Shown piece after piece: positions 3 to 28,902 of a stretch of 32,000 nucleotides of DNA. The first letter of the stretch is position 1; every line of letters begins with the position of its first letter. Made by a program: the position numbers and the translations under genes. The notes below the pieces were generated by a model that was not told the DNA's origin, made no database searches, and worked only from the letters and a program-made list of their open reading frames with translations. Source of the DNA: an archaeon (GTDB taxonomy: Archaea > Iainarchaeota > Iainarchaeia > Iainarchaeales > JANQMZ01); the NCBI GenBank assembly GCA_028279805.1, contig JANQMZ010000007.1, positions 360,001-392,000 on the forward strand, given 5' to 3'.

Positions 3-3000
3 AAAATTTCACTGGCTAACGTGGAATTGGTTGTGGACGGGGAAATTTTTTCTTCAGGAACAACAGATGAATCCGGAAATGTTTTATTGGTTGCACCTTC
101 GGAAAAAAATTTTTCAATACAGGTTTCAAAAGCCGGGTTTGAAGACAAAACTTTGAGAGGCTTACTGTCAGATGGAAGCACTGTTGATGTTGAATTGCTG
201 GAAAAAATTGGAAGCAGAATAATTTCATTCAAGGACGATGAAACCGGTGCATTAATTGAACAGGATTTGGTTGTAACTTTTTATTGTTCTGATTCTGATT
301 TTGAAACAACACGTGTTTTAAGTGACGGAACAATTGAACTTGAAAATGTTCCGGGGGATTGTGGCACACTGACTTTCAGGCAGATTGAAGGATTTGAATC
401 TGGAACAACCTCAATTAATGTTAATGAAGCTGAATCTGAAATTGTTTTAAAAAATCTGGGCAGTACCGGAATTGCTGATGTAATAGTTACAGGTGAAGAT
501 GGCTTGCCTGTTTTCGGGGCAACAGTTTCTCTGATGAGTACACAGGGAACAAAAAACGAGGAAGATGACATTGTGGAACAGGTAAGCGAAACAACACAGG
601 CAGGGATTGCTTCATTTGAGTCTGTGCCTTTGTCAGATTATTATGTGATTGTGGCAGACGATGAACATGAACAAAAGAAAAGCGAGATTCAGAGCCTTTC
701 ATTTGAAGCTTTAACGTTTAGTGTTTCTCTTGAAAAAACAAGTTCGGGAATTGTAAAAGTCAGAGTTAAAAATGCACAGAATGAATTGTTAAAAGATGCG
801 CAGGTTAAACTTGTAAAAGAAGATGTGGAACATGATTCAGGCTTTACTGATGAATCTGGTACAGTGGAATTAAGGGTTAATGCTTCTTTGAATTATAATT
901 TGATTGTTTCAAAGCAGGGATTTGCCGAGGCAAAAGTTTCAAATGTTTCAGTCGGGGAAGAATTTTATGAAATTAGTTTAACAAAAGCAACAGCTTCAAA
1001 CACTGCCAATCTGGTTGTAAAAGTTATTGATTCAGAATCAGATCCGGTGGAAAACGCAAAAATTTTGTTAAAATATGCGGATGGTGAAACCGCCGGAGAG
1101 CCTGTTATAACGGGAATTAAGGGAAAGGCAGAGTTTTTTGACGTGGCTCCGGGAAGATATTATGTTCACGCGGTAAAAGAAGGATTTGAAGGGGTAACCA
1201 CAAACGAGTTTTCCTTAAATGCAGGGCAACAGAAAACTGAAACATTTCAGTTAAAACTGGGTTTCGGGCAGATTGATGTAATTGTTTTAAACGATGACGG
1301 GGAAAAAATAAGCGGAGCAACAGTTAAAGCTTATGATTTTTATTCACAGCAACTGTTAGACGAAAAACTTGGAAGCGAGGGAACAGCATCCTTTAATTTA
1401 AGAGTTGACAGGCTGCCTTTTTTTGTTATAACCCATCCTGATTATTCTTCTTTTACAAGTGCAACATTAAAACCTGTTAAAGGATTAACACAGCAGAAAA
1501 AAGTTGAACTTGTAAAAAATGTTTCAGCATTAAAAGCAGAATTTTTAGGATTGTTTTTGAATGAACAAACTGAAAAATCCTTAAACCCGGGAACAAAATA
1601 CACTGCAAAAATGAGATTGCTTGTTCCTGAAACAAAAACATATTCAAAAGTCGGATTCTTTTTAAGAACAGGGGAAGGAGTTCTGAACAAAACAAACAAA
1701 ATGGAAGAAGACTCGGTTTTTATTAAAAATGTTAAAACGTCGGCAGACAGTTTGAGAAAAGGAATGTCTTATACGCCCAACAAAGGTTTTTCATCTGATG
1801 CTAAAAATTTAACATCAGGCAATGCAAAATGGGTTCAGATGGAATGGGAAATTCAGGGATTACTACCAAAAACAGGAGTGTTTGAAGTTGAAGCAGAAAT
1901 ACAGGTAAAAAGTGAGGCAAGCATAGGCGATTCCGCAAAAATTTCTTACAGAGGTTTCGGAATTTCAGGGAATACAATTGAAAGAAATCCTGTTGACAAT
2001 GAACTTGGCACAAACCTGAATTCATCTTCAAAAAATGGCTTGTATGCAAATTCAGGAGAATTATTTGCAACAATCGGGCCAAGCAATTTATGCTTTGAAG
2101 GATTCTGCAAGACTTTTGCAGTTGAAGATTTAACCCAGAATATCAGGACAAGCATTATAACAGATTATCCGGCTCAAATGGAAAATTCTTACAAATTATT
2201 TTTCACAATAAACAAAGATTCGCCTATAACAAAAACAAATTCTTTTATTTTGATTAAAAATGAAACAGCTTCACTGTTATTCAAAGATTACCAGATAACA
2301 GATGCCGCAGGGCAAACTTTTAACGGGAATGCGGATGGATATGAAGTGTCAAGAAACATTGGCTCATTGCAGGAAGGAAGTACAATTTCAGGGAACGTTG
2401 TGTTTGAACCGCAGATTCCTGGAAGAAATTTAATTAACATATCCGTTATATCGGAAAATCAGGTAATAGCAACCAAAAACTTATACATAATCGTTGAAGC
2501 CCCGAAAGTCCTGCATTTGGATATTATTCCAAAAACAATTGCTCCGATGATTGACAATTCTTTGATGTTTAAGGTGACAGATGAATCCGGAAAAAATGTT
2601 TCAAATGCAACAATTTCCCTGCTTTTGAATGATGTTCTGATTAAAGACGGAAAAACAAATTCTGACGGAGTTATGACCCATGTTTTAAGAGCACCTAGAA
2701 CCGGTTCTGAATTAAAGGCTGTTGTAAGAAAAAACGGTTATAAAACTTTGGAGAAAATTGTAACAGTTGATGACAGCATTTTTACACTAAGCCCTGAAGA
2801 GCTGAATATTGATTTGAAAATAAGCAGCGGGGAACAAAGGGATGTTGAAATGCTTTTGAACAATTTGCTTCCGGCTGAACTTGAAATAACAGATGCAAGA
2901 GTTTCAGACAATTTATCCGGACTGATTCAGGTTAACGGGTTGGATGCATTGCTTGGGGAAACTGTTGAAACAAGTTCCTCAAAACCTTTCACTATTTCAG

Positions 3001-6848: not shown

Positions 6849-6858
6849 TTTAACAAAA

Positions 6859-7323
6859 TTGTTGATTTTTGTGGCAGAAGAAAAATTTTTAGGGATTGGT
6901 TTAAGACTAATTATTTTAATTCTGCTAAATTTTGTTTTTTTTGGCGGCGGAATATTTTTAGCAGAGCAAATTGGCACAATTTACAACATAAGCCTGGTTG
7001 AATATGCTTTACTTGTGCTGGCAGTGTTTGTTTTTTCACTGCCTTTCTTCGGATATTTAAGCCCTTTAATTTTTGCAGGCACAGGTTACCTGCTGGGATT
7101 ACAGATTTTAAAAGAACCATTGCTTGGATTAACATTGGTGCCTTTAATTTTTTCCTCAACAGGCGGATTAATTCTTGCCCAAAATTTGCTTTCAAATATT
7201 AAAAAAAATGAGCCTGTTGAAAAAAAAAGAATTTCAATAATTTTTCTCGTGCTTGCTTTTTTAATGGTTTTAGGAATAAAATGGTTCCTTGTATCACAGG
7301 GAAAAGCAACTCTTTTAAACTAA
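6859..7323 (+). CDS. Small polytopic membrane protein (~154 aa, 4-5 predicted TM helices); possible divergent member of the small 3-TM family downstream
   Basis: The ORF lies 10 nt after the giant-1 stop on the same strand. There is no ATG before residue ~135, so the start must be non-ATG (TTG 6859 or GTG 6871) and is uncertain. The sequence is strongly hydrophobic. The segment LAEQIGT...LLVLAVFVFSLPFFG...AGTGYLLG resembles IKKHIGS...SVVLAVIVVYFGFF...FFGTGLF of the 23356 gene. Confidence 0.6.
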   Translation: MLIFVAEEKFLGIGLRLIILILLNFVFFGGGIFLAEQIGTIYNISLVEYALLVLAVFVFSLPFFGYLSPLIFAGTGYLLGLQILKEPLLGLTLVPLIFSSTGGLILAQNLLSNIKKNEPVEKKRISIIFLVLAFLMVLGIKWFLVSQGKATLLN

Positions 7324-7345
7324 AAAATGCTAATAAAAAGCATTT
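7323..7345 (+). terminator. Weak hairpin plus T-run after the 6859-7323 gene
   Basis: AAAATGC (7323-7329) pairs with GCATTTT (7339-7345) across a 9-nt loop and runs into TTTTATAT. The stem is AT-rich and therefore of low stability. Confidence 0.2.
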
Positions 7346-7405
7346 TATATAACAAAAAACAATAAATTATAAGAAAAGTAATTAATTAATGAGAGGTAAT
7401 TAAGA

Positions 7406-10400
7406 ATGGGGCTTGCTGACGGATTTAAAGACCTCTACTACAAATGGGAAGACAAATGGTATGGTTTTCTTGACAAAGTTCAGGAAAGAATTCCGGTATA
7501 CAAAGTAATTGACCCCATTGACAAAGTTGTTCCAAGTTTTGCGTTATTTTCAGGCATAATTTTAATATTGGTAGGCTGGGGATTGTTTGCACTTGTTTTT
7601 GGAACAATTCAGCAATCTGTTTTTTCGGTTCAAATTGTTGACGCAGACGGACAACCGGTTGAAGGAATAAATGTCAGCTTTTCCTATAATGAAACAACGG
7701 ATACGTTCCCCACAAACCAAAGCGGTTCAACTGCGCCCGTAACCGTAACACCGGGAACAAATGTAACGGTTAGCTTTTTTGCATCAGGTTTTGGAGAGAT
7801 TGAAAAAAATTATACAACTGAAGGCGGATTGGACAGACGAAGAATTCCTTTAACTGAAAGGGATGCAGGTCAAAGAGTTTACAGGTTTCAGGTACTGGAT
7901 TCTTTAAACAGGCCGGTGGACACTTCAGTCAGACTGGAATTTGACTGTTCAAATGCATCGGCAACAGCACCCGATGACCAGACTGTTTTTGAATCAAATG
8001 TTGAGGTGCCTGTTCCAAATGACTGCGGGCAGTTAAGCGTGAAAGCTTACGCTTCAGGTTATGATTCGGGCTCAAGACAGAATGTTTCAGACGGCGGGCA
8101 GATTTTGCTGGCAGGAGAAGAAACAGGATTACTTCCGGCCGGTTCAGGAGAATTAAATGTTAATCTTACTTTTAACAGTTTAAGAGTTCTGGATTTGGTA
8201 AATGTACAGGTTTACAAATCCACATTAGGTGAAGGGGTAAAATATGACAGCGGAACATCTGTTTCAGGAGAAATTAATTTTGTTCTGCCGGCAGGAAATT
8301 ATTATATTGTAACAGATGCAACAACAAAATATGCATCAGCAAGAACTCTGGCTTTTTTGGTGCAGGAAGGGCAGACAATATCGGTTGATGTTGCATTAAG
8401 CGGTAGTGTTGACGGTTTTATTAAAGTAAAGCCTGTTGACAAAATATCAGGAGCAGAACTTGATGATACAGGAATTACCGTTAAAAAAGACGGGCAGGAA
8501 GTTTGTTTTGTCACGACAACCGAACAGGATTCAACTGTTCAATGTGGCGGAAAAGAAAGTGAAGAATACACTTTAATCGGATACAAAGAGGGTTACTGCA
8601 GGGAAGTTAAGGAAAATGTTTTGATCTCCGATAATGTTATAACACTGAAAATGACAAGAGACACAGGCCAATGCGGAGGAAAACTTCAGGCAGTTGTAAA
8701 AGATCAGGATGGAAATCCTGTTGCAGATGCAAAAGTTTCATTGTTTGATGATGAAAGAAAATCTTTGGGATTTTTGGAAAGAATTACGAATAGCGAGGGT
8801 GAAGCTGTTTTTTCAGGTGTTCAAACCGGTTCATATAAAGTGTTTGCATACAAGGGACAGTTTTCAGGATGGTCCGATGCTCAAAGATTTGTAAGAGATT
8901 TTGATGATGAAACTTTGTACGAGGTTTCAATGTTAATCCCTGACGGAACAATCAGGGTTGTTGTAAAAAATGAGGACGGGGAACCGGAACAGTTTTCAAC
9001 AGTTTTGCTTGTTGACGGAATAACATGGAAAGCAGTTGAAGGGCCTTTGCCTGTGACAAGTCCTGACGGTGTTTTAGATATTGTTACAAAAGCGGATAAA
9101 GATGTTTTTGCTGTTGTAACCAAAAACGATTTTGCTGATTTTACTTCAAGAGTTTATAATGTTAAGCCTGAATCTGTTCAGGAAATTAATGTAACGCTTG
9201 AGCCTGAAATCATTTCAGGGGATTTGGATGTAAAATTTTTGGGATTGTTTAAAGGGGATTTGATTGCACAGGTTGTACAGCCCGGAAAAGAATATGCTGC
9301 AAGGTTTCAGTTAAGAATTCCGGAAAACAAAGGGTATGATGAATTAGGGCTTCATGTGAGAACAGGGCACTCGAATGCAATGGAAACAGATGAATGGTTT
9401 ATTAAGAAATTAAATGCTCCTGAAGCATCTGATGAGAGGTCAACAGCGTTTAATCCTGAGGAAGGGCAGGAACATGATGAAGAATTTGTAAGCAGGGCAG
9501 GTTCAAAATGGGTTAACATTTTATGGCATGATTTTGACAACAGGACAGGCATAATTGAATCAGAGGTTATTGTAAAAGTTAAGGAAAATGCAGGAGAAGA
9601 ACCGTTTTTGCCTTTAAGATGGAGAGCATGGGGTGAAGATGGCGGGGAAATAATAAGGAGTCCCAAAGACAATTCACTTGGAACGTCAAGTTCAGCCAGT
9701 GATTTGTATGCTAACACCAACGGAGAAGAATTTGAAGTTGGCTCTGAAACATTATGCTCTGATGTGTGGTGTTTTAATGCAAATATTTTAGATGTTTCTG
9801 AAAATTTGGTTGAAACGGTTTCAGATTCGTATACGGCAAAGCATAACACTTTGTACAAATTAACTTTTTCAGTTTTAAACAATTCACAGTTTGACACTGA
9901 TTCATTTAATGATGCGCAACTCCAGATAATTAATGATGATGAAGCAATATTGATAGGAGAATATTCTGTTACAGGAGCAGACGGTTCTACAATCACAAAC
10001 GATTTAAGCGATTATGAAACTCCTTTGATTAATGCCGGGGATGTAAAACCAAGAAAAGATGTTTCCGGTTATTTTTTCTTCAAACCGGAATTGTCAGTAA
10101 ACTCTGATCTGGTTTTACAGGTCAGGTCGGGAAACAGGATAAGATTTGAAAAAACAATAACTGTTGACATACTTGCCCCAAATTCCTTTAATATGGAATT
10201 TGAACATGATGACAAGTTTTCACAGCAGCCTCCGATTTTAAAAAGCGGAATTGAACAAAATTTGAGAGTCAGGGCTTCAGATGCGGCAAACGGAGAATTT
10301 GTCCAGAATGCTGATATTAAGGCCAAAAACAGGTTCGGAGATGTTTTGGTTACAGCAACAACAAATGAACTGGGAATAGGAGTATTATCATTGCCTGCAT

Positions 10401-13400: not shown

Positions 13401-15025
13401 GATTAAAAGCACAGCCATCAGCAAATGATTACAAGTTAACAGCAGAACTGGCAAGCAACAACCAGTTTTCAATGGATGTGGATGTAGAATTTGTAATAAA
13501 CAGAATTGATACAACAACAACGGTAACCTGTGAAGAAGGGAATGAACAAACTGTTAACATGACAAGCTTCAGGAATGTTGAATGCACTTTGGTTGGAATA
13601 AACAACGGAGAATTTGAAGCAACTGTTAATATTACACCTGATTTAAGCAGCTGCAGCGGAGGCACCTGTCTGAATGGAGACCTGGACAATGATGATTTGT
13701 CTTTAACTTTTGCCACTGCAGACCAGGGAGAAGGATTACAGCAATGCGAGCCTTATAGTACAGCAAGGCTTGGAGAATTTATGGCAGCCACAGGCCTGGA
13801 AGATTCAGGAATTTTGAAAAAAACAAGCTTTAATGCAAACCTGATGAGAGACGGTTATACGCATGATTTCCAGAAAGACTTTCACGAGTTTGCCACAACA
13901 AAAGCATTTTTCCAGACACCCGGTTATTATGAAAGTGAAGGATTAGGAGAATATTTTTCAAACCCGGATTTGTTCAAATTTGACTCGCCTTTACTGGTAA
14001 GCCCGAATTCACCACTGCCGGCAGGCAAGTACAGGGTTACAATTGACATAACATATGATGATGATTCATGGGAATTGTTTGAAAATGACCAGCCAAATGC
14101 AAAAATTACAGTTGAATTGGAAAAACTGGCAACACCTCAGCCGGATTCACCGTTTTATTATCTGCCGTTTAACGGTTTGGTCGGAGTTGACACTGCAAAC
14201 GGAAGGCAGGGTTATGGTGTGAATTATGTGCAGGGAACACAGGAAGAAATAAGAATAAATGACGATGTACAACAGCTTGTTGTAAGTGAATCAATTCCAA
14301 ACTCTAATCCGGTTCAGAACGGTTTGATTACAACAAGAAAAATTGAAGATTTCAGAACGCTTAACATGGATAACAGGGGAATTGTTTTGGATGTTTCAAG
14401 AACCGGAAGCACTAATGCTTTAACATTCAGCCCTGGAAGAGCTTCACCTCTGTTAATGAAAGTCACAGGAGGAGACAGTGACAAAGCTTATGCATTTTAT
14501 TCAATGAATTTAGGCGGAACACCACAGGATATTGGTTCGTCCTTAACAGTCTGGGACGGAATAACAAGAGGATGTAAAGATTTCCTGGATCAGGAATTAA
14601 GTGAACATTACCTGCAGAGAACAGATGTTCAGGGTGGGGTAGGATTAACAGAATGTTCCGGAACATTTGACCAGACAGAATATGGATTGGAATGGTGCAA
14701 TACTAAAAACAGCGGAGATGTTTACCTGCAAACCGTTTTCTTCACACCTTTAAACAAAACAGCAACATTAAGCATGATTTCATCACAGGACGACGCAGTG
14801 TTTTATGATGCCGGAAGCAATGAAACAACACAGGTTGACTTGGATCAGTCAGCTCAGACAATTGACAATGTAAAAGCTGTGCTGGATTTAATAACATCTG
14901 AAGATGTTTGTGTTAACGGATTCGGAAACGGGTCAGCTGCAAGATTTTTCTGGAACCCTGAAAAAATAATTAACGGTGCATACAGCGGGGTTAAAGCTGC
15001 AATACCGGCTTCATGCATACAGTAA
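7406..15025 (+). CDS. Giant membrane-anchored surface protein, paralog 2 of 3 (2539 aa); uncharacterised family
   Basis: ATG at 7406 is preceded by GAGGT (7393-7397) at 8-nt spacing. It has a conserved N-terminal leader (aa 1-44) and one TM (FALFSGIILILVGWGLFALVFG, nt 7538-7603). Beta-sandwich modules follow (e.g. LQAVVKDQDGNPVADAKVSLFDD...SEGEAVFSGVQTGSYKVFAYKGQF). The core starts at KFLGLF (~9232) and carries the blocks SKWVNILW, CSDVWC, GQPVPLKNLSAMVKW, YCDATQFSI, LMRDGYTHDFQKDF, SPFYYLPFNG..NGRQGYGVNY and FFWNPEK. Many N-x-S/T sequons and paired Cys residues suggest an extracytoplasmic location. Confidence 0.93.
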   Translation: MGLADGFKDLYYKWEDKWYGFLDKVQERIPVYKVIDPIDKVVPSFALFSGIILILVGWGLFALVFGTIQQSVFSVQIVDADGQPVEGINVSFSYNETTDTFPTNQSGSTAPVTVTPGTNVTVSFFASGFGEIEKNYTTEGGLDRRRIPLTERDAGQRVYRFQVLDSLNRPVDTSVRLEFDCSNASATAPDDQTVFESNVEVPVPNDCGQLSVKAYASGYDSGSRQNVSDGGQILLAGEETGLLPAGSGELNVNLTFNSLRVLDLVNVQVYKSTLGEGVKYDSGTSVSGEINFVLPAGNYYIVTDATTKYASARTLAFLVQEGQTISVDVALSGSVDGFIKVKPVDKISGAELDDTGITVKKDGQEVCFVTTTEQDSTVQCGGKESEEYTLIGYKEGYCREVKENVLISDNVITLKMTRDTGQCGGKLQAVVKDQDGNPVADAKVSLFDDERKSLGFLERITNSEGEAVFSGVQTGSYKVFAYKGQFSGWSDAQRFVRDFDDETLYEVSMLIPDGTIRVVVKNEDGEPEQFSTVLLVDGITWKAVEGPLPVTSPDGVLDIVTKADKDVFAVVTKNDFADFTSRVYNVKPESVQEINVTLEPEIISGDLDVKFLGLFKGDLIAQVVQPGKEYAARFQLRIPENKGYDELGLHVRTGHSNAMETDEWFIKKLNAPEASDERSTAFNPEEGQEHDEEFVSRAGSKWVNILWHDFDNRTGIIESEVIVKVKENAGEEPFLPLRWRAWGEDGGEIIRSPKDNSLGTSSSASDLYANTNGEEFEVGSETLCSDVWCFNANILDVSENLVETVSDSYTAKHNTLYKLTFSVLNNSQFDTDSFNDAQLQIINDDEAILIGEYSVTGADGSTITNDLSDYETPLINAGDVKPRKDVSGYFFFKPELSVNSDLVLQVRSGNRIRFEKTITVDILAPNSFNMEFEHDDKFSQQPPILKSGIEQNLRVRASDAANGEFVQNADIKAKNRFGDVLVTATTNELGIGVLSLPALEPGEPLTVSVEKAEFETLEETVNVDSRVVVIDPNSLGVSLNTKTVFSQQKFVVIKNETELDLKIKKVEIEGDFRGYLDETGMQDWLDSQYSNNIIEAEEDLPLTLNFSLSELGKSLAKTESLDGFFNVEVTTGATDFVESIPVKMSIGVGGEVDNPNCFVVTKRNWETGTEGSERILSFEIENNCAIKGQPVPLKNLSAMVKWNSNHVGDFSLQVGASQQAGPSQIELTSGFFKLVRNIVEAGESIPASLTFVPDGGVLGEANATIIIRADNEKAGGAQVLEDKINAKIDVINLTECIRFDRDIVNLKEGKDSKFKVETKSCGGKVDFKFESPLDIDPPEITLQATDSKSITILADEQWITGQYPIYVLARGTQDTQFSLRKLIRARIPSTGCFELSSYEYDIYDSADSPYDGFDVGILTNRCKETQVDVTIQFDERDWMKAMEEGLKWGLVGGVLGLLNDGDLDDIFDDLLGKKKKDNVATQPESSSGEETSEEENEETPEETETIEEQQSEESQGFLVDGYCGAVEGGIIPDFMNLCGEEKAVETSTPTEAPIEQPVLTGSEALMNEALEASGLPISLSELESDYPNDYDLFKNTVETENEGANFYFDGTRFWTVNQVLDKIHGELVSDAARENAPTATNETVATEEQECPEGQYWNPNNGTCEEEVEFAAENESLLREPVGLFVFAGNETGIDSEEKITEESENVVASVNPVGFISLGGIFEGGGIGNVWDILTEMVADPLTGFTNGFLIGTLLTYFDMESGTIQGTVIVEDINVSTTTPLELLEPPGRNDIPLARNITVMAGEERTQRNLQDIALRQGRVELIFENAGNEVQDNPFTPIFGVLKVTGEEIEYVTNYSNNNRSVLAEGKLREKERKDYSEKFHIQFNSFSPEEQPPELIETKSCQIRNLRGETGINARPKVLMEWNWSDVQENACDSDGLGNYCDATQFSITLLKKIKEINDFLETSAPFECPTSTTALSEAEQDLDDFSKDVAITGLKAQPSANDYKLTAELASNNQFSMDVDVEFVINRIDTTTTVTCEEGNEQTVNMTSFRNVECTLVGINNGEFEATVNITPDLSSCSGGTCLNGDLDNDDLSLTFATADQGEGLQQCEPYSTARLGEFMAATGLEDSGILKKTSFNANLMRDGYTHDFQKDFHEFATTKAFFQTPGYYESEGLGEYFSNPDLFKFDSPLLVSPNSPLPAGKYRVTIDITYDDDSWELFENDQPNAKITVELEKLATPQPDSPFYYLPFNGLVGVDTANGRQGYGVNYVQGTQEEIRINDDVQQLVVSESIPNSNPVQNGLITTRKIEDFRTLNMDNRGIVLDVSRTGSTNALTFSPGRASPLLMKVTGGDSDKAYAFYSMNLGGTPQDIGSSLTVWDGITRGCKDFLDQELSEHYLQRTDVQGGVGLTECSGTFDQTEYGLEWCNTKNSGDVYLQTVFFTPLNKTATLSMISSQDDAVFYDAGSNETTQVDLDQSAQTIDNVKAVLDLITSEDVCVNGFGNGSAARFFWNPEKIINGAYSGVKAAIPASCIQ
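7538..7603 (+). other. Signal-anchor transmembrane helix of giant paralog 2; conserved cytoplasmic leader at 7406-7537
   Basis: FALFSGIILILVGWGLFALVFG is the only strongly hydrophobic stretch near the N-terminus. It is preceded by a charged leader with Lys and Arg residues, which fits an N-in orientation. Confidence 0.7.
11822..11953 (+). other. Acidic low-complexity linker inside giant paralog 2
   Basis: The translation is KKKKDNVATQPESSSGEETSEEENEETPEETETIEEQQSEESQG. Paralogs 1 and 3 have no counterpart. Confidence 0.8.
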
Positions 15026-15028
15026 CGG

Positions 15029-15038
15029 AGTTTAAATT
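15029..15038 (+). promoter_or_regulatory. TATA-like element upstream of giant paralog 3
   Basis: GTTTAAATTA lies ~30-39 nt upstream of ATG 15068. A T5 run (15051-15055) lies between it and the ATG. Confidence 0.3.
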
Positions 15039-15067
15039 AATGAAATGGCTTTTTCAAAGGCGTTGTA

Positions 15068-18000
15068 ATGGGTTTAAAGGAAATTTATTTTGAGTGGGAA
15101 AATAAATGGTACGATTTTTTAGACAAGGCTAATGAAAAAATTCCTATATACAAAATAATTGACCCTGTTGACAAAATTGTCCCAAGTTTTGCATTGTTTT
15201 TGAGCATTATTGGAATTCTTGTTTTATGGGGAGCTTTTATTTTGTTATTGCCCGGCGTTGCATTAACATTAACATTTGAAGATTCTTTGGGAAACCCGGT
15301 TTCAGGCTTAAATGTTACATATTCTTTTGGAGCCGGAACAGCTACAGCGTTAACCAATTCAAGCGGAATGCTTGACCTGCGCGTTCCTCCAAATTCAACT
15401 GTTGAAATAATTGTGGAAGAACAGACTGTGAACGGAACAGGTATTCAGAGAAAAACTGAATTTTTTGAAATGGGAGAGGAAAATTTAAGCAGAACAGTTT
15501 CTTTGAGAACGGGTTCGGCTTTGTTTTCAGGTGAAAAAACTTTAATTTTTGAAGATGCTTTTGGAATAATAACAGGAGAACCAATTAAAGCAAACTTTTC
15601 ATGCTCTGATTCTTCAGTGGAAGACTGGGTTAAAGAAGATTCGGATGAAGACGGAAGAATTTCATTTGAAGTGCCGGAAGAATGTGAAAGGCTTACCATA
15701 AATGTAAACGAATCAGAATATGAAGCCAAAACAATTGTTTTTTCAGGTGAAGAAACACAGGTTGTTGTTCTTGTAAAAGAAATGCCTCCCGGAGGAACAC
15801 TTGAAGTTGAAATAAGAGATGAAAATGATAAAATTGTTTCATCAGATTTTTTGATAACAGTAACAGGCCTGGATGAAACACAAAAACAAAATGTTTCTTA
15901 TGGTGCAACAGCATTTGAAGATTTGATTCCCGGAACATACACTGTTAGTGTTTCAGACAACAGCGGAGAATACAGTTCGGGTTATGTTTCAAGCGTTGTG
16001 GTTAATTCAGGTGAAACAACAAAAACAGAGATTCTGATAAGCAAAAACATTAAAGGAACAATAAAAGTAACAGTAAAAGACAAGGTTTCCGGAAGCATTG
16101 TTGAAAATGCAGTTGTACAATTACAGGATGAATTAGGCGTTTTAATAACTGAAAAAAACACGGGAGAATTGGCTGAAACAGTTCAATTTTTGTTGTTTGA
16201 AGGAACCGATTTTCAGGTTATGGCAAAAAAAGCCGGAGACATTGGAACAGGTTATTTTGCAAACATTGTTGAAAATGTTAAGCTGAATGACAATATTATA
16301 ATAGAAATTGAAAAAATGACTCCTGCCAATACCGGCAGAATAAAGGTAAATGTAACAGATGAATCCGGAAAAAAAGTTTCAGGTGCACTGGTTTATTTAA
16401 GATATGCTGAAGATGACAGCATTATTAACATTTCAGATTCTGATGCAATAGGAAACGCAAAAGAAACAGATTTGGAAGGAGAAGCAAATTTTTTGCTGAA
16501 TGTTTTTGACAAAGAAGTTTACCCTTTTGCAGTTAAATATCCGGCGCAGGCCGGTTCAAAAGAAAATGCAAGACTTCTGGATGAAAGAGAGGAAAATGTT
16601 TTCAATATTCAGATGGTTATCGGGGAAAGTGTTTTGAAAATAAAAGCGGTTGATGAAACCGGTTTGCTTGTACCGGAATCATTTTACCAGATTTTTAAAT
16701 CAAACGGGGAAAAACTTGTGGGAACACAGACACTTGTGACCGGGGAAGGGTCGTATACTTTAAAAGCTGATGAAAAAATTTTTATAATTGCAGAAAATGA
16801 AAATTTTCAGTCATACCAGAGCAATGTAATACAGTTATGGCCAAAACAGGATTTTGAAATAACCGCAAAACTGTTGCCAAAACTTTTGGCAGGCCCTCCT
16901 GAAATAAAATTTTTAGGATTATTTAATGATAAAAAATCCGTTACAACACCTTTGGCCGGAAAAACTTATTCCGCAAGATTTGAATTAACAATGCCCGTGG
17001 GGGAAGATATTGACAAAGCCGGAGTGCATGTGAGGGCAGGTGATACAAAATATTTTGAAAATGACGCGTTATACATTAACAATGTAAAAGCTTCAAATTA
17101 TTCGGCTGTAATAAGAGGAAAAAGTTTTGATTCTCCTCTTGGAGAAAATGAAGAATTAACAGAGGGGAAGGCAAAATGGGTTAACATTGAATGGGAAAAC
17201 CCGTTAAAAACAACAACAGAATTTGAAGTTGATTTGACTGTTAAGCCTGATACTGAAAGCCAGGAACCGTTGCATTTGAATTACAGGGCCTGGATTAAAA
17301 CAGGTGATGGAAAAATTTTAAGACAACCTGAAGACATTGTCCTGGGGCTTGGAGGAAGTAATGCAACACGCAATGAATTGTATGCTGAAACCGAATCAGC
17401 TTTATGGTTTGAGGGCGTGAACAACTTATGTTCAGGAGAATTTTGCCTGGATTTGGAAGAATTATTCGGGTTCAGGGAACAATTGTTTGTTGAAAAAAAA
17501 GATGTAATTGTTTCATCCGATTATAATTATTCTTTCAGGATAAGAAATGATTCTGATGACAAATATGATTCAGTTGAATTTTTTGCCGAAAGCATTGATT
17601 TGGACGGAGAACAGGATGACGGATTATTGTTAAAAGATTATAAAATTAAAACAGGTTCAGGCAACTTTGTTCAGGGCTCTGAATTAAATGGTTTTAAAAT
17701 TGACGGAGTTGACCTGGAAGAATTTTCAAAAGGAGAAAGCATTACTGGGGAAATTACTTTAATGCCTCAGAAAGCCAAAGCAAACCATTTGAGAATATGG
17801 ATTGTGGCTGACAAAAGAATTGTTTTCGATTCAGAGGAAGAAAATAAATTGATTTTTAATGCGGAAGATGAAGATGTTCTGAATATGGAAATTGTTCCGG
17901 AAACAATTCCTGCTTTTCTGGGAACTGAGTTAAGCATTAATTTTACGGATGAAAAAGACAAGGCTGTTGAAAACGTTTTAGTTTCAGTTAAAATTAATGC

Positions 18001-21000
18001 TCCGGGCTATTCAAATACTTTGAATTATTCTTCAAATGAATTTGGAAATGTTAAAGTTAATTTGCTTGGAAGGCCTCCGGGAACAACAATAAAAATTACA
18101 GGCCAAAAAACAGGGTTTAAACTGGCAGTAAAAGAATTTGAAATAAATCCGGACCCTTTAACCGTTTCAGGAAAATTAAACTTTTCACTTAACACTCAAA
18201 CAGTAAAAGAAGATTCAAAAGAAATAACAATAAAGAATGAAACAGCTGAAGATTTTGAAATAATTGACATGTTTTTGAGCATTGAAAATGTTCCAGGGAT
18301 TGAAGCATTGGACCAGGGAAGAATTTTGGCACATTTGGAGTCACTGGAAGGCATAATAGTTGAACAGGATTCTGAAAAACTTTTAACAATCAAGGCAATG
18401 TTAAGGCAGGATGCACAACAATTAATTTCAGACAATGTAAGCCTTGACGGCACTCTGACAATAATTGTGAAAAATAACAGGTTTAATTTTAACCATGCTC
18501 TGACTCTTGATGAAAAAATTTCAATAAAAGTAGGCGCAACACCGGATGATATTGGAAACGGATGTGTTTTTGTTGAAGGAATAAATGTTCCTGAATGGGA
18601 GTCATCAACGCTTGGTTCTCCTGCAAGAACACAGTTTGACATTATAAACAGATGCCGTTCAGGTTCTGTTCCAATAGAACTGGAAAAAATAAGGGCAAAA
18701 TTAAATTTGGGTGCAACACCATCCGGAATGGGAACAGTTAACCTGCAGATTGGTTCCACAACAAGTGAATTGCCTCCAAACAGGTGGGTTGATATTTTGT
18801 TCGCAGTTGAACCTGAAAAACCTTATTCTGCAACTTTGATTTTTACTCCGAGAGCAACCCAAAACTTTTTGGGGGAAAGAGCAGATTTTGAAATTGAATG
18901 GGATGCAATTGTAATAGCTGACGGAAAAGAAACATCTGTTGAAGTTGTTAAAGACATTCAGGCAGAAATAGGAATTCTGGATTTACAGCAATGCCTTGAG
19001 TTTGATGGAAGAGTTGTGCTTGGAAGCTTTAGGGATACAACTGATTTTTCAATTGAAAATGTTTGCAACAATGTTACACTAAATATTGATTTGTGCAAAA
19101 ATGACCCGGGATGCAAAGGAGGTACAACCGAGGGAGGAATAGAATTTCCGGATTCGAGAGATAGACGATTTAATCTGGCTTCAGGTGAACAAAGAATAAT
19201 TGAGGTTGGACGAGGGCCAAGAGATATTCCGGGAATTTACGGAATAGGAATTCATGCAGGAGTACGGGGCGGGAACACAGCATTCCGTTCCCAGATAAAA
19301 GCCGGAGAAATTGATTTAATTGTTGAACCATCACCATCAGATTATTTTTATTTTAAAAACCATAATTATGATTTTGAATTAATTGGTTTGGGAGCATCGG
19401 ATGAAAAAACACTTGTAAACACAATGTTACTGGAAACACCGAGAATAAGGGCAAATTATTGCCAGCTTGACAGAGCAGCAGGAAGCAATACTTATTATGA
19501 AGAATCTTTTCAGGTTGCTACAGCCATACTAACCGTTGGAGGTTTGTCAGCATGGCTTCCGGCAGTAATAGCAGTTGGTGTGGCAGCATTGCTTGACCTG
19601 TTTGGAATTGGTGACACGGATTGCAGTGACCGGTCGGATGTTGTTCCATGGCAGGATTTTGTGATAAGATTGGGTGATAATATTGAAAGTGATTGTGGCA
19701 CAATTACAACTGACCGAGGAATAATTGAAGTTCAGGGCTTTAATGATTTTACAGGGGAATGGGTTGGCCCTGCTGAAACAAGCAAAATTGGTTCAAATTT
19801 AAGTGAAGAAATTGGGTTAAAGTTTACAAACAATTCAGGAGCAGAATTTGAAAAACCAACATATGCAATCGGAGTAATACAGGCAAAAGAACATATTCAT
19901 GGTGATTCTCTGCATACCTGGGACATTAATCCGGGGCAAAAGCCTCATGATATTCGCGGGAAAGGAAGATTGTGTCCGACATTTGTTCCGGACAGTGACA
20001 CTACAACATATGAGCAAAAATTGCATTTAAGGTTTAAAACAAAAGCATTGCCTGAAGAAGGATTAATTGCAAAAGAAGCACAGCAATGCGTGTCAGACTT
20101 TAAAGTGGGGCACACCGGTTCAAATGCTTTGCCAAAAATTGAATTAAACTGGGAATGGGGTTCAAACGGAATTCAGGCTGACTCATGTGATGCTGATAAT
20201 CCTGAAGGAATTTACTGTGATGCAACACAGTTTTCAATAGCTTTAAGCAAAAAAATTAATACTTTTGATGAATTTTTAGCTGCAAACAATTACGATTTTG
20301 CATGCCCTGACAACTGGCCTGACATTCAGGCAAATGAAGCTGCTGAAAATGAAAATAATGAAAATTCAAGCCAGTCAATTCAAAACGGAAAAATTGGTTT
20401 AAGTAACCTGGCTCACAGCCTGTCAGGAGAAAATGCAACAATAATTGCAACAATTCAGAATAAAGGTTCGGAAGCTTCAACTGCAACCGTTTCAATGACA
20501 ATAAATGGCCCGGATGGTTATTCTGATTCATGTGATGTTACAAGCGGGAGCATTGATTCTGGAAACAATGCAAATGTTGAATGTGATTTCACAGGATTAA
20601 AAGTTGTGCCTGACGATTTTTATTCAGTGGCAGCACAGGTTACAGATTCAAATCCTGTTGAAAAACAGGACTCTGTTCTGACAAGAACTTTTACAAACTT
20701 TGGTTCAAGCTCAAGCTGTTGGCTTGAGAGAAGCACAAGAAAAGTTGGAGAAACACAGTTAATTGAATTATGGTTAAATGAAAACCTGGCTCAAACCGGG
20801 CAATACGTAAATGAAAACAATGTTGTCTGGACAACAAATGTGTCTGGCTTTGAAGCATTGCATGACTTGCTGCATTTCAGGGCTCAATTAATCAGGGATG
20901 GTTATACTTCTGATTTCAGAAAAGATTTTGCAGAATTTTATACAACTTCAAGTTTTTTTGATGCACCTGGCTGGTTTGCATCCGATTCAACAGGAAAACT

Positions 21001-22120
21001 GGCTGACTATTTTGCTTCACCGGATAACAGAATCAGATTTGTAAAACAGTGGAACAAAAAAGAGGATGCAAAGCTTGCAACTCCGGGAGAATATGCGGTT
21101 GATATTGATGTAATTTTTGAAGATGACTGGAGTTTTTACAATAATGCACAGCCAAATACAAACATTACAATTGTTTTGGATAAAATACAAGAACCTGTGC
21201 CAAATTCCCCGTTTTATTATATTCCGTTTAATGGGGAAACAGGATTGGACAGCAGTAATGGAAGGCAGGGTTACGGAGTCAATTATTCAAATGAAGATGA
21301 CAAAATTTTGTTAAAAGATTTGCCTCGCCCTCTTGACACAACAAATCTGATTAATTCAAATCCGTTGTTTTTGTTAAAAACAGATGTTGAAAAAGGATTC
21401 AGGCAGGTTAATTCAATTAGTTCAACAAGAGGCATAGTTTTAACAGTTGATCAGGGTTCAAATGAAAAAGAAAAAACACTGGTGTTTGCACCAAGCTTTG
21501 CAACACCTATTACAATGCATGCAGAACAGCAAAATGTTACAGAGGAAAATTTTTCAGAATACTTTCAGTTGTTTGAAAATTCACAGGCAATAAATGTTGG
21601 CCCGGTATTAAGTTACTGGAATGGCATGGGACAATGCAAAGATTTTACAGGCGGACCAATTTCACAGGAATTTGATTATTATGCTGACAGGCAGGCAACA
21701 CAATCAGACCAAATCGGAGGATGGCAGCAGGCTTATGCAATTGACTGGCCTTTCGCAGATAAAACAGGTGATGTTTATCTATATACAACCATTTACACTC
21801 CGGCATCAAAAGATTATTTGATTGCATCCCATTCAAACAGTTCTTTGAATTTTTTCACACCAAATGAAATTGAGGCAGTACAAATATCAGCACAAGGTGT
21901 TTTGGGAATGACAGGCAATGACATGCTTGGTGCAGACAGTTTGTCATCATTACAAGAGGTGTTTGACCTGGTTGAATCTGAAACATTGTGCGTAAGCGAA
22001 AATGGCTTGAAATCAGAATTTTTCTGGAACCCTGAAAAATTATGGGAAGCCTCAGGTTCAAATGTAAGCCAGGAAAGCTTTTCAGCCGGCTTAACTGCCG
22101 GAAACAGTTGCATTGGCTGA
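15068..22120 (+). CDS. Giant membrane-anchored surface protein, paralog 3 of 3 (2350 aa); uncharacterised family
   Basis: ATG at 15068 lies 42 nt after the paralog-2 stop. The leader plus TM (nt 15188-15265) are highly similar to paralog 2. The core starts at KFLGLF (~16907). Shared blocks are AKWVNIEWE, CSGEFC, YCDATQFSI, LIRDGYTSDFRKDF, SPFYYIPFNG..NGRQGYGVNY and FFWNPEK. It also has a CARDB-like stretch (NATIIATIQNKGSEASTATVSMTINGP...) and an internal 33-aa uncharged hydrophobic segment (19514-19612). Confidence 0.93.
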   Translation: MGLKEIYFEWENKWYDFLDKANEKIPIYKIIDPVDKIVPSFALFLSIIGILVLWGAFILLLPGVALTLTFEDSLGNPVSGLNVTYSFGAGTATALTNSSGMLDLRVPPNSTVEIIVEEQTVNGTGIQRKTEFFEMGEENLSRTVSLRTGSALFSGEKTLIFEDAFGIITGEPIKANFSCSDSSVEDWVKEDSDEDGRISFEVPEECERLTINVNESEYEAKTIVFSGEETQVVVLVKEMPPGGTLEVEIRDENDKIVSSDFLITVTGLDETQKQNVSYGATAFEDLIPGTYTVSVSDNSGEYSSGYVSSVVVNSGETTKTEILISKNIKGTIKVTVKDKVSGSIVENAVVQLQDELGVLITEKNTGELAETVQFLLFEGTDFQVMAKKAGDIGTGYFANIVENVKLNDNIIIEIEKMTPANTGRIKVNVTDESGKKVSGALVYLRYAEDDSIINISDSDAIGNAKETDLEGEANFLLNVFDKEVYPFAVKYPAQAGSKENARLLDEREENVFNIQMVIGESVLKIKAVDETGLLVPESFYQIFKSNGEKLVGTQTLVTGEGSYTLKADEKIFIIAENENFQSYQSNVIQLWPKQDFEITAKLLPKLLAGPPEIKFLGLFNDKKSVTTPLAGKTYSARFELTMPVGEDIDKAGVHVRAGDTKYFENDALYINNVKASNYSAVIRGKSFDSPLGENEELTEGKAKWVNIEWENPLKTTTEFEVDLTVKPDTESQEPLHLNYRAWIKTGDGKILRQPEDIVLGLGGSNATRNELYAETESALWFEGVNNLCSGEFCLDLEELFGFREQLFVEKKDVIVSSDYNYSFRIRNDSDDKYDSVEFFAESIDLDGEQDDGLLLKDYKIKTGSGNFVQGSELNGFKIDGVDLEEFSKGESITGEITLMPQKAKANHLRIWIVADKRIVFDSEEENKLIFNAEDEDVLNMEIVPETIPAFLGTELSINFTDEKDKAVENVLVSVKINAPGYSNTLNYSSNEFGNVKVNLLGRPPGTTIKITGQKTGFKLAVKEFEINPDPLTVSGKLNFSLNTQTVKEDSKEITIKNETAEDFEIIDMFLSIENVPGIEALDQGRILAHLESLEGIIVEQDSEKLLTIKAMLRQDAQQLISDNVSLDGTLTIIVKNNRFNFNHALTLDEKISIKVGATPDDIGNGCVFVEGINVPEWESSTLGSPARTQFDIINRCRSGSVPIELEKIRAKLNLGATPSGMGTVNLQIGSTTSELPPNRWVDILFAVEPEKPYSATLIFTPRATQNFLGERADFEIEWDAIVIADGKETSVEVVKDIQAEIGILDLQQCLEFDGRVVLGSFRDTTDFSIENVCNNVTLNIDLCKNDPGCKGGTTEGGIEFPDSRDRRFNLASGEQRIIEVGRGPRDIPGIYGIGIHAGVRGGNTAFRSQIKAGEIDLIVEPSPSDYFYFKNHNYDFELIGLGASDEKTLVNTMLLETPRIRANYCQLDRAAGSNTYYEESFQVATAILTVGGLSAWLPAVIAVGVAALLDLFGIGDTDCSDRSDVVPWQDFVIRLGDNIESDCGTITTDRGIIEVQGFNDFTGEWVGPAETSKIGSNLSEEIGLKFTNNSGAEFEKPTYAIGVIQAKEHIHGDSLHTWDINPGQKPHDIRGKGRLCPTFVPDSDTTTYEQKLHLRFKTKALPEEGLIAKEAQQCVSDFKVGHTGSNALPKIELNWEWGSNGIQADSCDADNPEGIYCDATQFSIALSKKINTFDEFLAANNYDFACPDNWPDIQANEAAENENNENSSQSIQNGKIGLSNLAHSLSGENATIIATIQNKGSEASTATVSMTINGPDGYSDSCDVTSGSIDSGNNANVECDFTGLKVVPDDFYSVAAQVTDSNPVEKQDSVLTRTFTNFGSSSSCWLERSTRKVGETQLIELWLNENLAQTGQYVNENNVVWTTNVSGFEALHDLLHFRAQLIRDGYTSDFRKDFAEFYTTSSFFDAPGWFASDSTGKLADYFASPDNRIRFVKQWNKKEDAKLATPGEYAVDIDVIFEDDWSFYNNAQPNTNITIVLDKIQEPVPNSPFYYIPFNGETGLDSSNGRQGYGVNYSNEDDKILLKDLPRPLDTTNLINSNPLFLLKTDVEKGFRQVNSISSTRGIVLTVDQGSNEKEKTLVFAPSFATPITMHAEQQNVTEENFSEYFQLFENSQAINVGPVLSYWNGMGQCKDFTGGPISQEFDYYADRQATQSDQIGGWQQAYAIDWPFADKTGDVYLYTTIYTPASKDYLIASHSNSSLNFFTPNEIEAVQISAQGVLGMTGNDMLGADSLSSLQEVFDLVESETLCVSENGLKSEFFWNPEKLWEASGSNVSQESFSAGLTAGNSCIG
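15188..15265 (+). other. Signal-anchor transmembrane helix of giant paralog 3; conserved cytoplasmic leader at 15068-15187
   Basis: FALFLSIIGILVLWGAFILLLPGVAL. The arrangement is homologous to paralog 2. Confidence 0.7.
19514..19612 (+). other. Internal 33-aa uncharged Gly/Ala-rich hydrophobic segment in giant paralog 3
   Basis: VATAILTVGGLSAWLPAVIAVGVAALLDLFGIG sits ~1480 aa into a protein that otherwise looks extracytoplasmic. Confidence 0.75.
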
Positions 22121-22592: not shown

Positions 22593-22593
22593 A

Positions 22594-27258: not shown

Positions 27259-27330
27259 TTGCTCACCGGAAAACAACGTAATATGCGTTAAACAATATTT
27301 AATGCTTTTGAATAAAGCAAACAATAGAAT

Positions 27331-28898: not shown

Positions 28899-28902
28899 AA
28901 AT

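What the first reader, a model, noticed from the sequence alone, without database searches (positions are those of the whole stretch)
3..22120. Tandem triplication of a giant gene occupying 67% of the window
The three ORFs (6846, 7620 and 7053 nt) are co-linear paralogs. Shared blocks can be read directly, listed here as paralog 1 / 2 / 3. EFLGLF / KFLGLF / KFLGLF lies at about 1537 / 9232 / 16907. AKWVQMEWE / SKWVNILW / AKWVNIEWE lies at about 1821 / 9501 / 17169. The C-x4-C motif is CFEGFC / CSDVWC / CSGEFC. G[TQ]PVPLKNLSA occurs in paralogs 1 and 2. [FY]CD[SA]TQF[TS] lies at about 4793 / 13241 / 20216. Further blocks are [ML][ER]DG[FY][ST].DF[RQ].DF, then GYG, then WNP at the C-terminus. 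Paralogs 2 and 3 are visibly closer to each other than either is to paralog 1; for example both have SPFYY[LI]PFNG..G.D..NGRQGYGVNY. Keeping three genes of more than 2200 codons intact, with no internal stops, argues for selection. The divergence argues for diversification in specificity or antigenicity.
Basis: seen in the sequence. Interest (0 to 1): 0.8.

Follow-up and report, generated by a model that had tools for sequence, protein, structure and literature searches.

The report
Conserved giant surface-protein operon of Iainarchaeota
Three huge neighbouring genes are real but very old copies of one another, kept in the same order across a whole phylum of tiny DPANN archaea; they encode membrane-anchored stalk-and-head surface proteins of a family nobody has described.

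Summary

The interpretation needs correcting. This is not a recent triplication and not antigenic diversification. In 28 Iainarchaeota (Diapherotrites, DPANN) genomes the same three types lie in the same order. Genes group by array position (50/50 bootstraps), and dN/dS is 0.18-0.22.

The window cuts a larger cluster. Upstream lie a fourth giant and a gene with a prepilin-like start. Downstream lie four conserved small membrane proteins.

Each giant has:
- a conserved cytoplasmic N-tail and one transmembrane anchor;
- roughly a dozen Ig-like beta-sandwich domains, about half seen only by structure prediction;
- a variable hinge, which carries membrane-grade hydrophobic segments in the third paralog;
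- a ~650-aa C-terminal head with no Pfam family and no whole-domain PDB or viral fold match.

Most likely the cluster builds a constitutive, multi-subunit surface coat or tether. No experiment bears on its function. I found no paper on the family.

The parts
3..6848 (+). P1-type giant gene. It is cut by the window edge: 2281 of 2359 aa are present, and the N-tail and TM anchor are missing.
   Evidence: ORF. The exact full-length protein is P0201, whose N-terminus is MPEDNFYRKIENKYYDLMESIDGKGIPVYKVIDFIEERNIPSF followed by a TM helix. PF13620 CarboxypepD_reg scores 118 bits against a cut-off of 32.3. It clusters with first-position genes of other genomes.
6859..7323 (+). Small hydrophobic ORF (154 aa, TTG start) between P1 and P2. 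It is an uncertain gene.
   Evidence: ORF list. A 150-aa gene is called here on the Logan contig, and a 166-aa gene at the same place on a JGI contig. There are only weak tblastn matches in 3 loci and no Pfam hit.
7406..15025 (+). P2-type giant gene (2539 aa, 279 kDa, pI 4.3).
   Evidence: It is identical to P0001. P2-type orthologs are 30-41% identical.
7406..7600 (+). P2 N-terminal conserved tail (aa 1-45, ...EDKWYGFLDK...IPVYKVIDPIDKVVPSF), presumed cytoplasmic, plus the TM anchor (aa 47-65).
   Evidence: This is the most conserved 50-residue block of the family (cons 0.60). TM hydropathy is 2.54. The motif is present in P2- and P3-type genes of the loci.
7601..11740 (+). P2 stalk: roughly a dozen Ig-like beta-sandwich domains (aa 66-1445).
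   Evidence: Pfam CarboxypepD_reg, Big_1 and bMG3 hits in aa 69-491. The AF2 model of aa 585-1445 is all-beta, with pLDDT 82 and pTM 0.44. Foldseek matches multi-Ig, ASH and MG-domain chains at E down to 5e-21.
11741..13057 (+). P2 variable hinge (aa 1446-1884): an acidic low-complexity insert flanked by Gly-rich hydrophobic segments (LKWGLVGGVLGLL; NPVGFISLGGIF...FLIGTLLTYF).
   Evidence: Alignment occupancy falls to 0.25-0.46 here. Sequence shown. This region has the highest dN/dS of the gene (0.28-0.42).
13058..15022 (+). P2 C-terminal head (aa 1885-2539) with an inserted Ig-like (CARDB-like) domain.
   Evidence: AF2 pLDDT 86.7, pTM 0.73. Foldseek against PDB and BFVD gives no whole-domain match, only short alignments of 108-172 columns to small beta-sandwich proteins (TMq <= 0.16). 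No PDB sequence match and no Pfam family. A profile search finds 882 clusters; in the 150 best hits listed, wherever the protein is long the domain lies at its C-terminus.
15068..22120 (+). P3-type giant gene (2350 aa, 259 kDa).
   Evidence: It is identical to P0015. It clusters with third-position genes.
15194..15250 (+). P3 N-terminal TM anchor (aa 43-61).
   Evidence: Hydropathy 2.83.
19508..19612 (+). P3 internal hydrophobic segment (aa 1481-1515, FQVATAILTVGGLSAWLPAVIAVGVAALLDLFGIG). It may be a membrane hairpin.
   Evidence: Hydropathy 2.13-2.25. A segment of at least 1.6 lies at the same place in 29 of 38 P3-type proteins and of at least 2.0 in 23 of 38, against 9 of 47 P2-type and 0 of 37 P1-type. 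In most orthologs it is followed by DPC...DY(V/I)INL.
20024..22117 (+). P3 C-terminal head (aa 1653-2350).
   Evidence: It aligns with the P2 head at 31% identity. The BLASTP segment is 29% over 713 aa.
22167..22592 (+). tm141: small multi-pass membrane protein, the first of four paralogs following P3.
   Evidence: Found after the last giant of the array in 30 loci at 46-62% identity. Paralogous to tm93 and tm109. No Pfam hit.
22585..22914 (+). tm109: small multi-pass membrane protein.
   Evidence: Found in 29 loci at 48-61% identity. All homologs are Diapherotrites hypothetical proteins with no Pfam hit.
23356..23637 (+). tm93: small membrane protein.
   Evidence: Found in 26 loci, with the same order conserved.
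23654..23953 (+). tm99: small membrane protein.
   Evidence: Found in 24 loci, with the same order conserved.

Best explanation
The window holds most of a phylum-wide gene cluster of Iainarchaeota (Diapherotrites, DPANN archaea). The cluster order is P0, then a gene with a prepilin-like start, then P1, a small ORF, P2, P3, and four small membrane proteins. P0 and the prepilin-like gene lie outside the window.

P1, P2 and P3 are anciently diverged paralogs that are not interchangeable. Each is held in the cell membrane by one N-terminal helix behind a conserved 45-residue tail, which I take to be cytoplasmic. Each carries a chain of roughly a dozen Ig-like domains, which would reach a few tens of nanometres if extended. 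Each ends in a conserved, Cys-containing head of about 650 aa that has no catalytic-looking invariant residues.

I infer that the giants assemble, probably with each other and with the small membrane proteins, into a constitutive surface structure. This would be a spike coat or tether doing the job of an S-layer and/or holding the cell to a surface or partner. The head would make a conserved protein-protein or ligand contact.

Shown: paralogy, ancient origin, fixed order, purifying selection, membrane anchoring signals, beta-sandwich stalk, unassigned head.

Inferred: extracellular location, hetero-assembly, coat or tether function.
For: - Paralogy.
- Distribution: 222 tblastn-confirmed hits in species-representative genomes, mostly labelled Candidatus Iainarchaeum or Diapherotrites, the rest mainly unclassified archaeal MAGs, including the complete genomes CP010424.1 and CP064981.1.
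- Order: P1>P2>P3 in 28 loci and never any other order.
- Age: position clades are monophyletic 50/50, and the nearest neighbour has the same position in 69/69 cases.
- Selection: dN/dS 0.18-0.22, with the head most constrained and the hinge least.
- Anchoring: an N-terminal TM is found in about 85% of full-length orthologs, and the N-tail is the best-conserved block.
- Stalk: Ig-like, from Pfam and AF2 plus Foldseek.
- Head: confidently folded (pLDDT 86.7). Its invariant residues are W, C, D, Q, G, Y, P and N, with no His, Ser, Glu or Lys.
- Composition: acidic pI 4.3-4.6 and mild sequon excess.
- Linkage to the small membrane genes: they stay attached to the last giant even where P3 is absent (L005, L045, L048, L056, L064) and where the next block is inverted (L016).
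- Operon-like spacing: gaps of 10-82 nt between genes.
- Larger cluster: a fourth giant and a conserved prepilin-like gene lie upstream.
Against: - There are no expression, localisation or interaction data.
- No lattice-forming S-layer domain was found.
- The whole region through to PolB is syntenic. Adjacency alone is therefore weak evidence of function for anything beyond tm141 and tm109.
- Some genomes lack P3 or carry extra copies, so a strict 1:1:1 complex is not required.
- The topology of P3 is ambiguous. If its internal hydrophobic segment crosses the membrane once, the head would be cytoplasmic. Sequon density does not discriminate between the two sides.
- Sequon enrichment is weak (observed/expected 1.0-1.3).
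Confidence: 0.55

Rival explanations
1. The giants are independent host- or substrate-binding adhesins. Each binds a different target, and the paralogs exist to broaden or vary specificity.
For: Long Ig-repeat stalks with a terminal head are the standard adhesin design. Many DPANN archaea are episymbionts that carry very large attachment proteins, for example SPEARE (PMC6642349). The ectodomains evolve faster than PolB, at 31-41% identity against 48-53% to this window. Copy number varies in some genomes.
Against: The head, which would be the binding tip, is among the most conserved and most constrained parts. No window has dN/dS above 0.47. The three types and their order are fixed across the phylum. 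There is no recombination or conversion signal. At least Ca. Iainarchaeum andersonii has been argued to be capable of independent life (PMC6349945).
Confidence: 0.25
2. The cluster is a cell-to-cell bridging or membrane-inserting device. The stalk carries the hinge's hydrophobic hairpin (P3) and Gly-rich amphipathic segments (P2) to a partner cell's membrane. They insert there, with the head acting as a clamp or pore-forming part.
For: Membrane-grade internal segments are conserved at one position in 29 of 38 P3-type proteins, and weaker ones occur in P2-type. They lie after about 1400 aa of stalk, which puts them far from the N-terminal anchor. Cytoplasmic bridges and membrane contacts are documented in other DPANN-host pairs (abstracts of PMC11329633 and PMC11291902, listed).
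Against: The segment could equally sit in the cell's own membrane, giving a doubly anchored loop. P1-type proteins lack it entirely. Five genomes lack P3. No pore-forming or fusogen fold was detected. No host is known for Iainarchaeota.
Confidence: 0.12
3. The giants are extracellular enzymes or protease traps related to alpha-2-macroglobulin or thioester proteins, or are carboxypeptidase-like as the database names suggest.
For: There are faint Pfam hits to MG3, MG4 and bMG3. Foldseek matches complement and A2M MG-domain chains. Source names include 'carboxypeptidase-like regulatory domain-containing protein'.
Against: There is no thioester motif C[GLA]EQ and no HExxH. No thioester, CUB or peptidase domain appears in Pfam or NCBIfam. 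PF13620 is a non-catalytic beta-sandwich. The head has no invariant His, Ser, Glu or Lys. TM-scores to A2M and complement proteins are only 0.11-0.18, so the match is of repeated domains, not of architecture.
Confidence: 0.04

Closest known systems
Sulfolobales SlaA/SlaB S-layer operon, and tetrabrachion of Staphylothermus marinus
   Same: These are archaeal surface structures built from very large glycoproteins encoded by adjacent, co-transcribed genes. A membrane-anchored stalk containing beta-sandwich domains holds an outer part tens of nanometres from the membrane (PMC5744192). The proteins are acidic.
   Different: The anchor here is N-terminal, not C-terminal. The stalk is an Ig-domain chain with no coiled coil. 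There are three or four paralogous giants of 250-300 kDa rather than two unrelated proteins. There is no sequence match: SlaB NF040788 scores 15 bits against a cut-off of 700. Lattice formation is untested.
SPEARE proteins of Nanohaloarchaeota (DPANN)
   Same: These are giant, mostly extracytoplasmic, single-TM-anchored proteins of a DPANN lineage. They take up several percent of a small genome and are proposed to mediate cell contact (PMC6642349).
   Different: SPEARE proteins carry serine-protease, laminin-G, toxin-like and restriction-endonuclease domains, and most have a C-terminal anchor. None of these domains is detected here. The present family has a fixed multi-paralog operon.
Giant1-5 surface-protein gene cluster of Apilactobacillus kunkeei
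   Same: This cluster has consecutive genes for 3,000-8,000-aa extracellular proteins, partly paralogous, with elongated predicted structures. It occupies a notable share of a small genome (PMC12863079).
   Different: It is bacterial, with beta-solenoid binding domains at the N-terminus. It is restricted to a few species and shaped by recombination and exchange. Here the paralogs are phylum-old, show no conversion, and have the conserved head at the C-terminus.
Bacterial Ig-repeat adhesins and MG-domain proteins (SpaA, SspB, PrgB, alpha-2-macroglobulin)
   Same: They contain chains of prealbumin-, Ig- or MG-like beta-sandwich domains (Pfam PF13620, PF17802, PF02369 and PF11974 hits; Foldseek).
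   Different: There is no LPXTG sorting signal at the C-terminus and no thioester motif. Isopeptide-domain models match only below threshold (TIGR04228 scores 19.8 against 36).

Membership tests
CarboxypepD_reg (PF13620) domain-containing proteins (the name these proteins carry in databases) | At least one match to PF13620 above the gathering score (32.3 bits) | tested here: met
   P1 scores 118 bits and P2 65.3 bits. P3 scores only 27 bits, below the cut-off. The label describes a non-catalytic stalk domain and says nothing about function.
Archaeal S-layer protein families (S_layer_N PF05123, SlaB NF040788, Methanosarcina-type S-layer duplication domain) | A sequence match to a curated S-layer model above its cut-off | tested here: not met
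   No Pfam S-layer family matches at E<=0.01. SlaB scores 15 bits against a cut-off of 700. The S-layer protein of Micrarchaeota, another DPANN phylum, is a different 101-kDa PF05123 protein.
Archaeal S-layer (functional class) | Forms a regular lattice covering the cell and is among the most abundant proteins | not testable with these tools
   This needs microscopy or proteomics of Iainarchaeota, and no such data were found.
Alpha-2-macroglobulin / thioester-containing proteins | A thioester motif CxEQ inside a helical thioester domain, together with MG domains | tested here: not met
   No C[GLA]EQ motif is present. No TED or CUB domain was found. Only MG-like beta-sandwiches match, at TM-scores of 0.11-0.18.
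SPEARE proteins | Serine protease, laminin-G adhesion and type III restriction-endonuclease domains | tested here: not met
   None of these domains appears in the Pfam or NCBIfam scans of P1-P3. The features are taken from PMC6642349.
Gram-positive-type isopeptide/sortase adhesins | A C-terminal LPXTG sorting signal and isopeptide-forming domains above threshold | tested here: not met
   No C-terminal LPXTG is present; the single internal LPKTG in P1 lies at aa 621. SpaA PF17802 scores 29 bits in P1 only, and TIGR04228 scores 19.8 against 36.
The giant-protein family itself (Iainarchaeota P1/P2/P3 types; unnamed) | An N-tail motif plus TM, an Ig stalk, and a C-terminal head carrying YCDxTQF ... 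DGYSxDFxxDF ... (S)PFYxxPFDG ... GYG ... WNP | tested here: met
   All three window proteins carry the head motifs. P2 and P3 show the N-tail plus TM within the window, and P1 shows it in its full-length form P0201. Profile E-values for the head are 5.5e-218 (P2) and 1.5e-198 (P3).

The most novel reading that the evidence does not exclude
Iainarchaeota may build their cell surface, or a cell-cell contact organ, from a machine of a kind not yet described. It would consist of four paralogous 250-300-kDa stalk-and-head proteins, a large pilin-like protein and four small membrane proteins, all from one conserved cluster of more than 30 kb. The head would have a new fold, and the third giant would be anchored twice or would insert into a partner's membrane.
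Probability: 0.2. Interest if true: 0.8.

Novelty: new variant of a known kind. Interest (0 to 1): 0.55.

Why it matters
Nothing is known experimentally about the cell envelope of Iainarchaeota or how they touch other cells. None has been cultivated, to my knowledge.

The three giants in the window span about 21.5 kb of an 853-kb source contig, or 2.5%. With the fourth giant upstream the figure rises to about 3.5%. The cluster is conserved in order across the phylum, so it is very likely central to their biology.

It offers three things:
- a concrete target for metaproteomics and cryo-ET;
- a marker for the phylum, which also flags mis-binned contigs;
- a confidently predicted 650-aa domain with no family assignment or whole-domain fold match.

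It also shows that a tandem array of giant paralogs can be an ancient fixed set of subunits rather than a diversifying adhesin repertoire.

Tried and rejected
- **PDB sequence searches.** P2 alone and a profile of the head gave no match.
- **Pfam on the head.** All 19 head sequences scanned at E<=1 gave nothing consistent.
- **Other libraries.** NCBIfam gave only sub-threshold noise. PADLOC defence models gave none. Rfam and tRNA scans gave none.
- **Contig and locus look-ups.** The look-up of encoding contigs found nothing on record for P0001. The full family alignment A1 was too diverse for the search for related loci, so the P2 subfamily alignment A2 was used.
- **Recent duplication or gene conversion.** Rejected. 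The longest DNA repeats between the genes are 25-117 nt at 71-96% identity, over motif-coding patches only.
- **dN/dS between the window paralogs.** Not meaningful at about 25% amino-acid identity, so I used ortholog pairs. Most are saturated (dS 1.5-2.1 or undefined). One pair is usable (L012/L051, dS about 0.6).
- **N-glycosylation sequons as a topology marker.** Too weak to use.
- **Thioester, HExxH, RGD and C-terminal LPXTG motifs.** All absent.
- **The M64-like peptidase as part of the system.** Rejected, because it is absent from all 74 related loci.
- **Literature.** Five searches found no paper on this family. The 2015 Diapherotrites paper (PMC4303637) is not held.
Full report
**1. Observation**

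The window has three long + strand ORFs at 3(21)..6848, 7406..15025 and 15068..22120, with no internal stops. I call their products p1, p2 and p3.

- BLASTP gives p1/p2 27% over 1182 aa (E=3e-94) and p1/p3 24% over 1191 aa (E=9e-58).
- For p2/p3 it gives 26% over 1377 aa plus 29% over 713 aa.
- A three-way alignment is co-linear from end to end.

p1 is cut by the window edge. An identical protein in the public collection (P0201) is 2359 aa long. It supplies the missing 78 residues, which are an N-terminal tail and a transmembrane helix like those of p2 and p3.

**2. The copies are old, not new**

A search of 5.8 billion proteins found 35 relatives of p2. Most are 2000-2900 aa, and the few that carry a source name are labelled archaeon or Diapherotrites; the only functional names are 'carboxypeptidase-like regulatory domain-containing protein' and one 'protocatechuate 3,4-dioxygenase beta subunit', the rest being 'hypothetical protein'.

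Each window paralog scored best against different outside proteins rather than against its neighbours. A scan of one genome per species gave 222 confirmed hits and 74 loci. Most are labelled Candidatus Iainarchaeum or Diapherotrites; many others are simply 'archaeon' or 'uncultured archaeon'. They include two complete genomes and Ca. Iainarchaeum andersonii.

- The order P1-type, P2-type, P3-type appears in 28 loci, and no other order was ever seen.
- To avoid circularity I then labelled 69 giants from 23 genomes only by their position in the array.
- The nearest neighbour shares the position in 69 of 69 cases.
- Each position forms a clade in 50 of 50 bootstrap NJ trees.
- Identity is 32-38% within a position and 21-27% between positions.
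- At the DNA level the genes share only short patches under the conserved motifs, so there is no recent conversion.

The unsaturated ortholog pair L012/L051 (dS about 0.6) gives dN/dS of 0.18, 0.21 and 0.22 for the three genes. No 200-codon window exceeds 0.47. The hinge is the most relaxed region and the C-terminal end the most constrained. More distant pairs agree but are saturated.

**3. The cluster is larger than the window**

Upstream, from a Logan contig that contains the window (L075; the window starts at L075:10233):

- There is a fourth giant, P0, of at least 2717 aa. It has the same tail-plus-anchor design.
- Its Ig region is 22-23% identical to p1-p3 over about 1000 aa, but its C-terminus is different.
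- Next comes a 576-aa gene, then p1.
- A JGI contig shows the same layout.
- The 576-aa gene has orthologs directly upstream of P1 in about 30 loci.
- These orthologs begin M-(N/D)-(K/E)-(K/R)-(G/A)-F-(T/N)-L-F-T-A-L..., which resembles a type IV prepilin (class III) signal.
- Only a sub-threshold ComGF hit supports that reading, so it remains a motif-based inference.

Downstream of p3:

- Four small multi-pass membrane proteins (tm141, tm109, tm93, tm99) follow in the same order in 24-30 loci.
- They are mostly 45-60% identical, better conserved than the giants.
- They are paralogs of one another.
- Outside the window's own contig, tm109 has relatives only among Diapherotrites hypothetical proteins.
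- They stay next to the last giant where P3 is missing (L005, L045, L048, L056, L064) and where the following block is inverted (L016).

Gaps between the genes are 10-82 nt. The M64-like peptidase, the 128-aa ORF and, largely, the 154-aa ORF are not conserved elsewhere.

**4. Anatomy of a giant (p2 numbering)**

- **Residues 1-45.** The most conserved block of the family (...EDKWYxFLDK...IPVYKVIDPIDKVVPSF). A strong TM helix follows at 47-65.
- **Residues 66-585.** About six prealbumin-like domains, which Pfam partly recognises as CarboxypepD_reg, Big_1 and MG-like.
- **Residues 585-1445.** AF2 predicts a chain of further beta-sandwich domains (pLDDT 82; pTM 0.44, as expected for beads on a string). 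Foldseek matches multi-Ig, ASH and MG-domain proteins by repeated domains only.
- **Residues 1446-1884.** A hinge, variable in length and composition.
  - In the P3 type it contains hydrophobic segments of membrane grade. They are present in 29 of 38 orthologs and often reach a hydropathy of 2.4-3.5 over 19 residues. Most are followed by DPC...DY(V/I)INL.
  - In the P2 type there are weaker Gly-rich segments. In the P1 type there are none.
- **Residues 1885-2539.** The head. AF2 gives pLDDT 86.7 and pTM 0.73, with mixed alpha/beta structure and an inserted Ig-like domain.
  - Against PDB and BFVD there is no whole-domain match. The confident alignments are short and to small beta-sandwich proteins such as the CARDB domain 3idu, which I attribute to the Ig insert (TMq at most 0.16).
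  - No PDB sequence and no Pfam family matches.
  - A profile search of 1.84 billion representatives finds 882 clusters. In the 150 best hits listed, wherever the protein is long the domain lies at its C-terminus.
  - Its invariant residues include four Cys, Asp, Gln, Tyr, Trp and Asn, but no His, Ser, Glu or Lys. This argues for a binding or assembly module rather than an enzyme.
- **C-terminus.** P2 and P3 types end in a conserved Cys-Ile-x(1-4). P1 types do not.

**5. Function**

No experiment bears on this family, and five literature searches found no description of it.

The best-supported reading is a constitutive, multi-subunit surface structure. The three (or four) giants would be non-redundant subunits anchored in the membrane. 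The small membrane proteins, and perhaps the pilin-like protein, would form its base or partners. I put this at about 0.55.

The presumed tip is the most constrained part, and the set is fixed across the phylum.

A membrane-bridging role for the P3 hinge cannot be excluded (about 0.12).

An enzyme or alpha-2-macroglobulin-like role fails its defining features.

The topology of P3 is unresolved. A single pass would place its head in the cytoplasm, and sequon density does not help decide.

**6. Comparison and novelty**

In design the proteins resemble stalked archaeal S-layer systems (SlaA/SlaB, tetrabrachion), DPANN giants such as SPEARE and bacterial giant-protein clusters such as Giant1-5. 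They are members of none of these (membership table).

The kind, giant Ig-repeat surface proteins in a tandem array, is known. Four things are new:
- the family itself;
- its unassigned head;
- the phylum-wide fixed set of paralogs;
- the conserved accessory genes.

I therefore rate it a new variant of a known kind, with moderate interest.

Noticed in passing
L075:2-8155 and L075:8172-9902 (upstream of the window; the window starts at L075:10233): A fourth giant gene (P0, at least 2717 aa) has the same N-tail, TM and Ig region but a different C-terminus. It is followed by a 576-aa gene whose orthologs in about 30 loci begin with a type IV prepilin-like signal (MNKKGFTLFTALVSFVLI...). Only a sub-threshold ComGF hit supports the pilin reading.
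   Followed up: partly
window 24390-26756 (+): A 788-aa secreted protein has a signal peptide, a Cys-rich stretch and an HEFGH zinc-peptidase motif. Pfam Peptidase_M64 scores 25.6 bits, just under its cut-off of 26. It is absent from all 74 related loci, so it is an insertion into an otherwise conserved gene order.
   Followed up: partly
window 26773-29355: cc183 (26773-27324, - strand), u503 (27387-28898, + strand), cc150 (28903-29355, - strand): A conserved block lies between the small membrane genes and PolB. It holds two coiled-coil proteins and a 503-aa protein with no family. cc150 gives a weak Snf7/ESCRT-III hit (E=8.5e-4, below the cut-off). It might be cell-division related. The block is inverted in L016.
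   Followed up: partly
window 15011-15025 and 22106-22120; loci generally: P2- and P3-type giants end in a conserved Cys-Ile-x(1-4) C-terminus (23/23 and 21/23 genomes). P1-type proteins do not (1/23). Its role is unknown; it could be a disulphide partner or a modification or processing signal.
   Followed up: partly
L005, L045, L048, L056, L064; and L019, L021, L022, L040, L065, L069, L074: In five loci P2 is followed directly by tm141, with no P3. Other loci carry an extra P2- or P3-like giant, and L065 has three P3-like genes in a row. The set is therefore not strictly invariant.
   Followed up: partly
L012 (JAFCCG010000009.1), L053 (JAGVNS010000003.1), L048 and L064: Contigs carrying this cluster are labelled Chloroflexi bacterium, Thaumarchaeota archaeon and Micrarchaeota archaeon. 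Given the otherwise strict Iainarchaeota distribution, these are probably mis-binned or mislabelled.
   Followed up: no
window 22923-23309 (+): A 128-aa basic, non-membrane ORF sits between tm109 and tm93. It has no counterpart in any related locus. It is either a lineage-specific insertion or not a gene.
   Followed up: no
P3-type orthologs, about aa 1490-1560 (for example L074:10121-17314, L067:19776-26876, L059:19389-26507): Several P3-type proteins have C-x-P-C at the start of the internal hydrophobic helix (CVPCVVIG, CPPCIIAG, GCIPCIVV). The window's own p3 lacks it.
   Followed up: no
window 29405-31819 (+): This is a family B DNA polymerase (PF00136 E=6e-57). The listed TTG start is immediately followed by ATG at 29408, which is the more likely start. 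Orthologs in the related loci are 48-53% identical.
   Followed up: no
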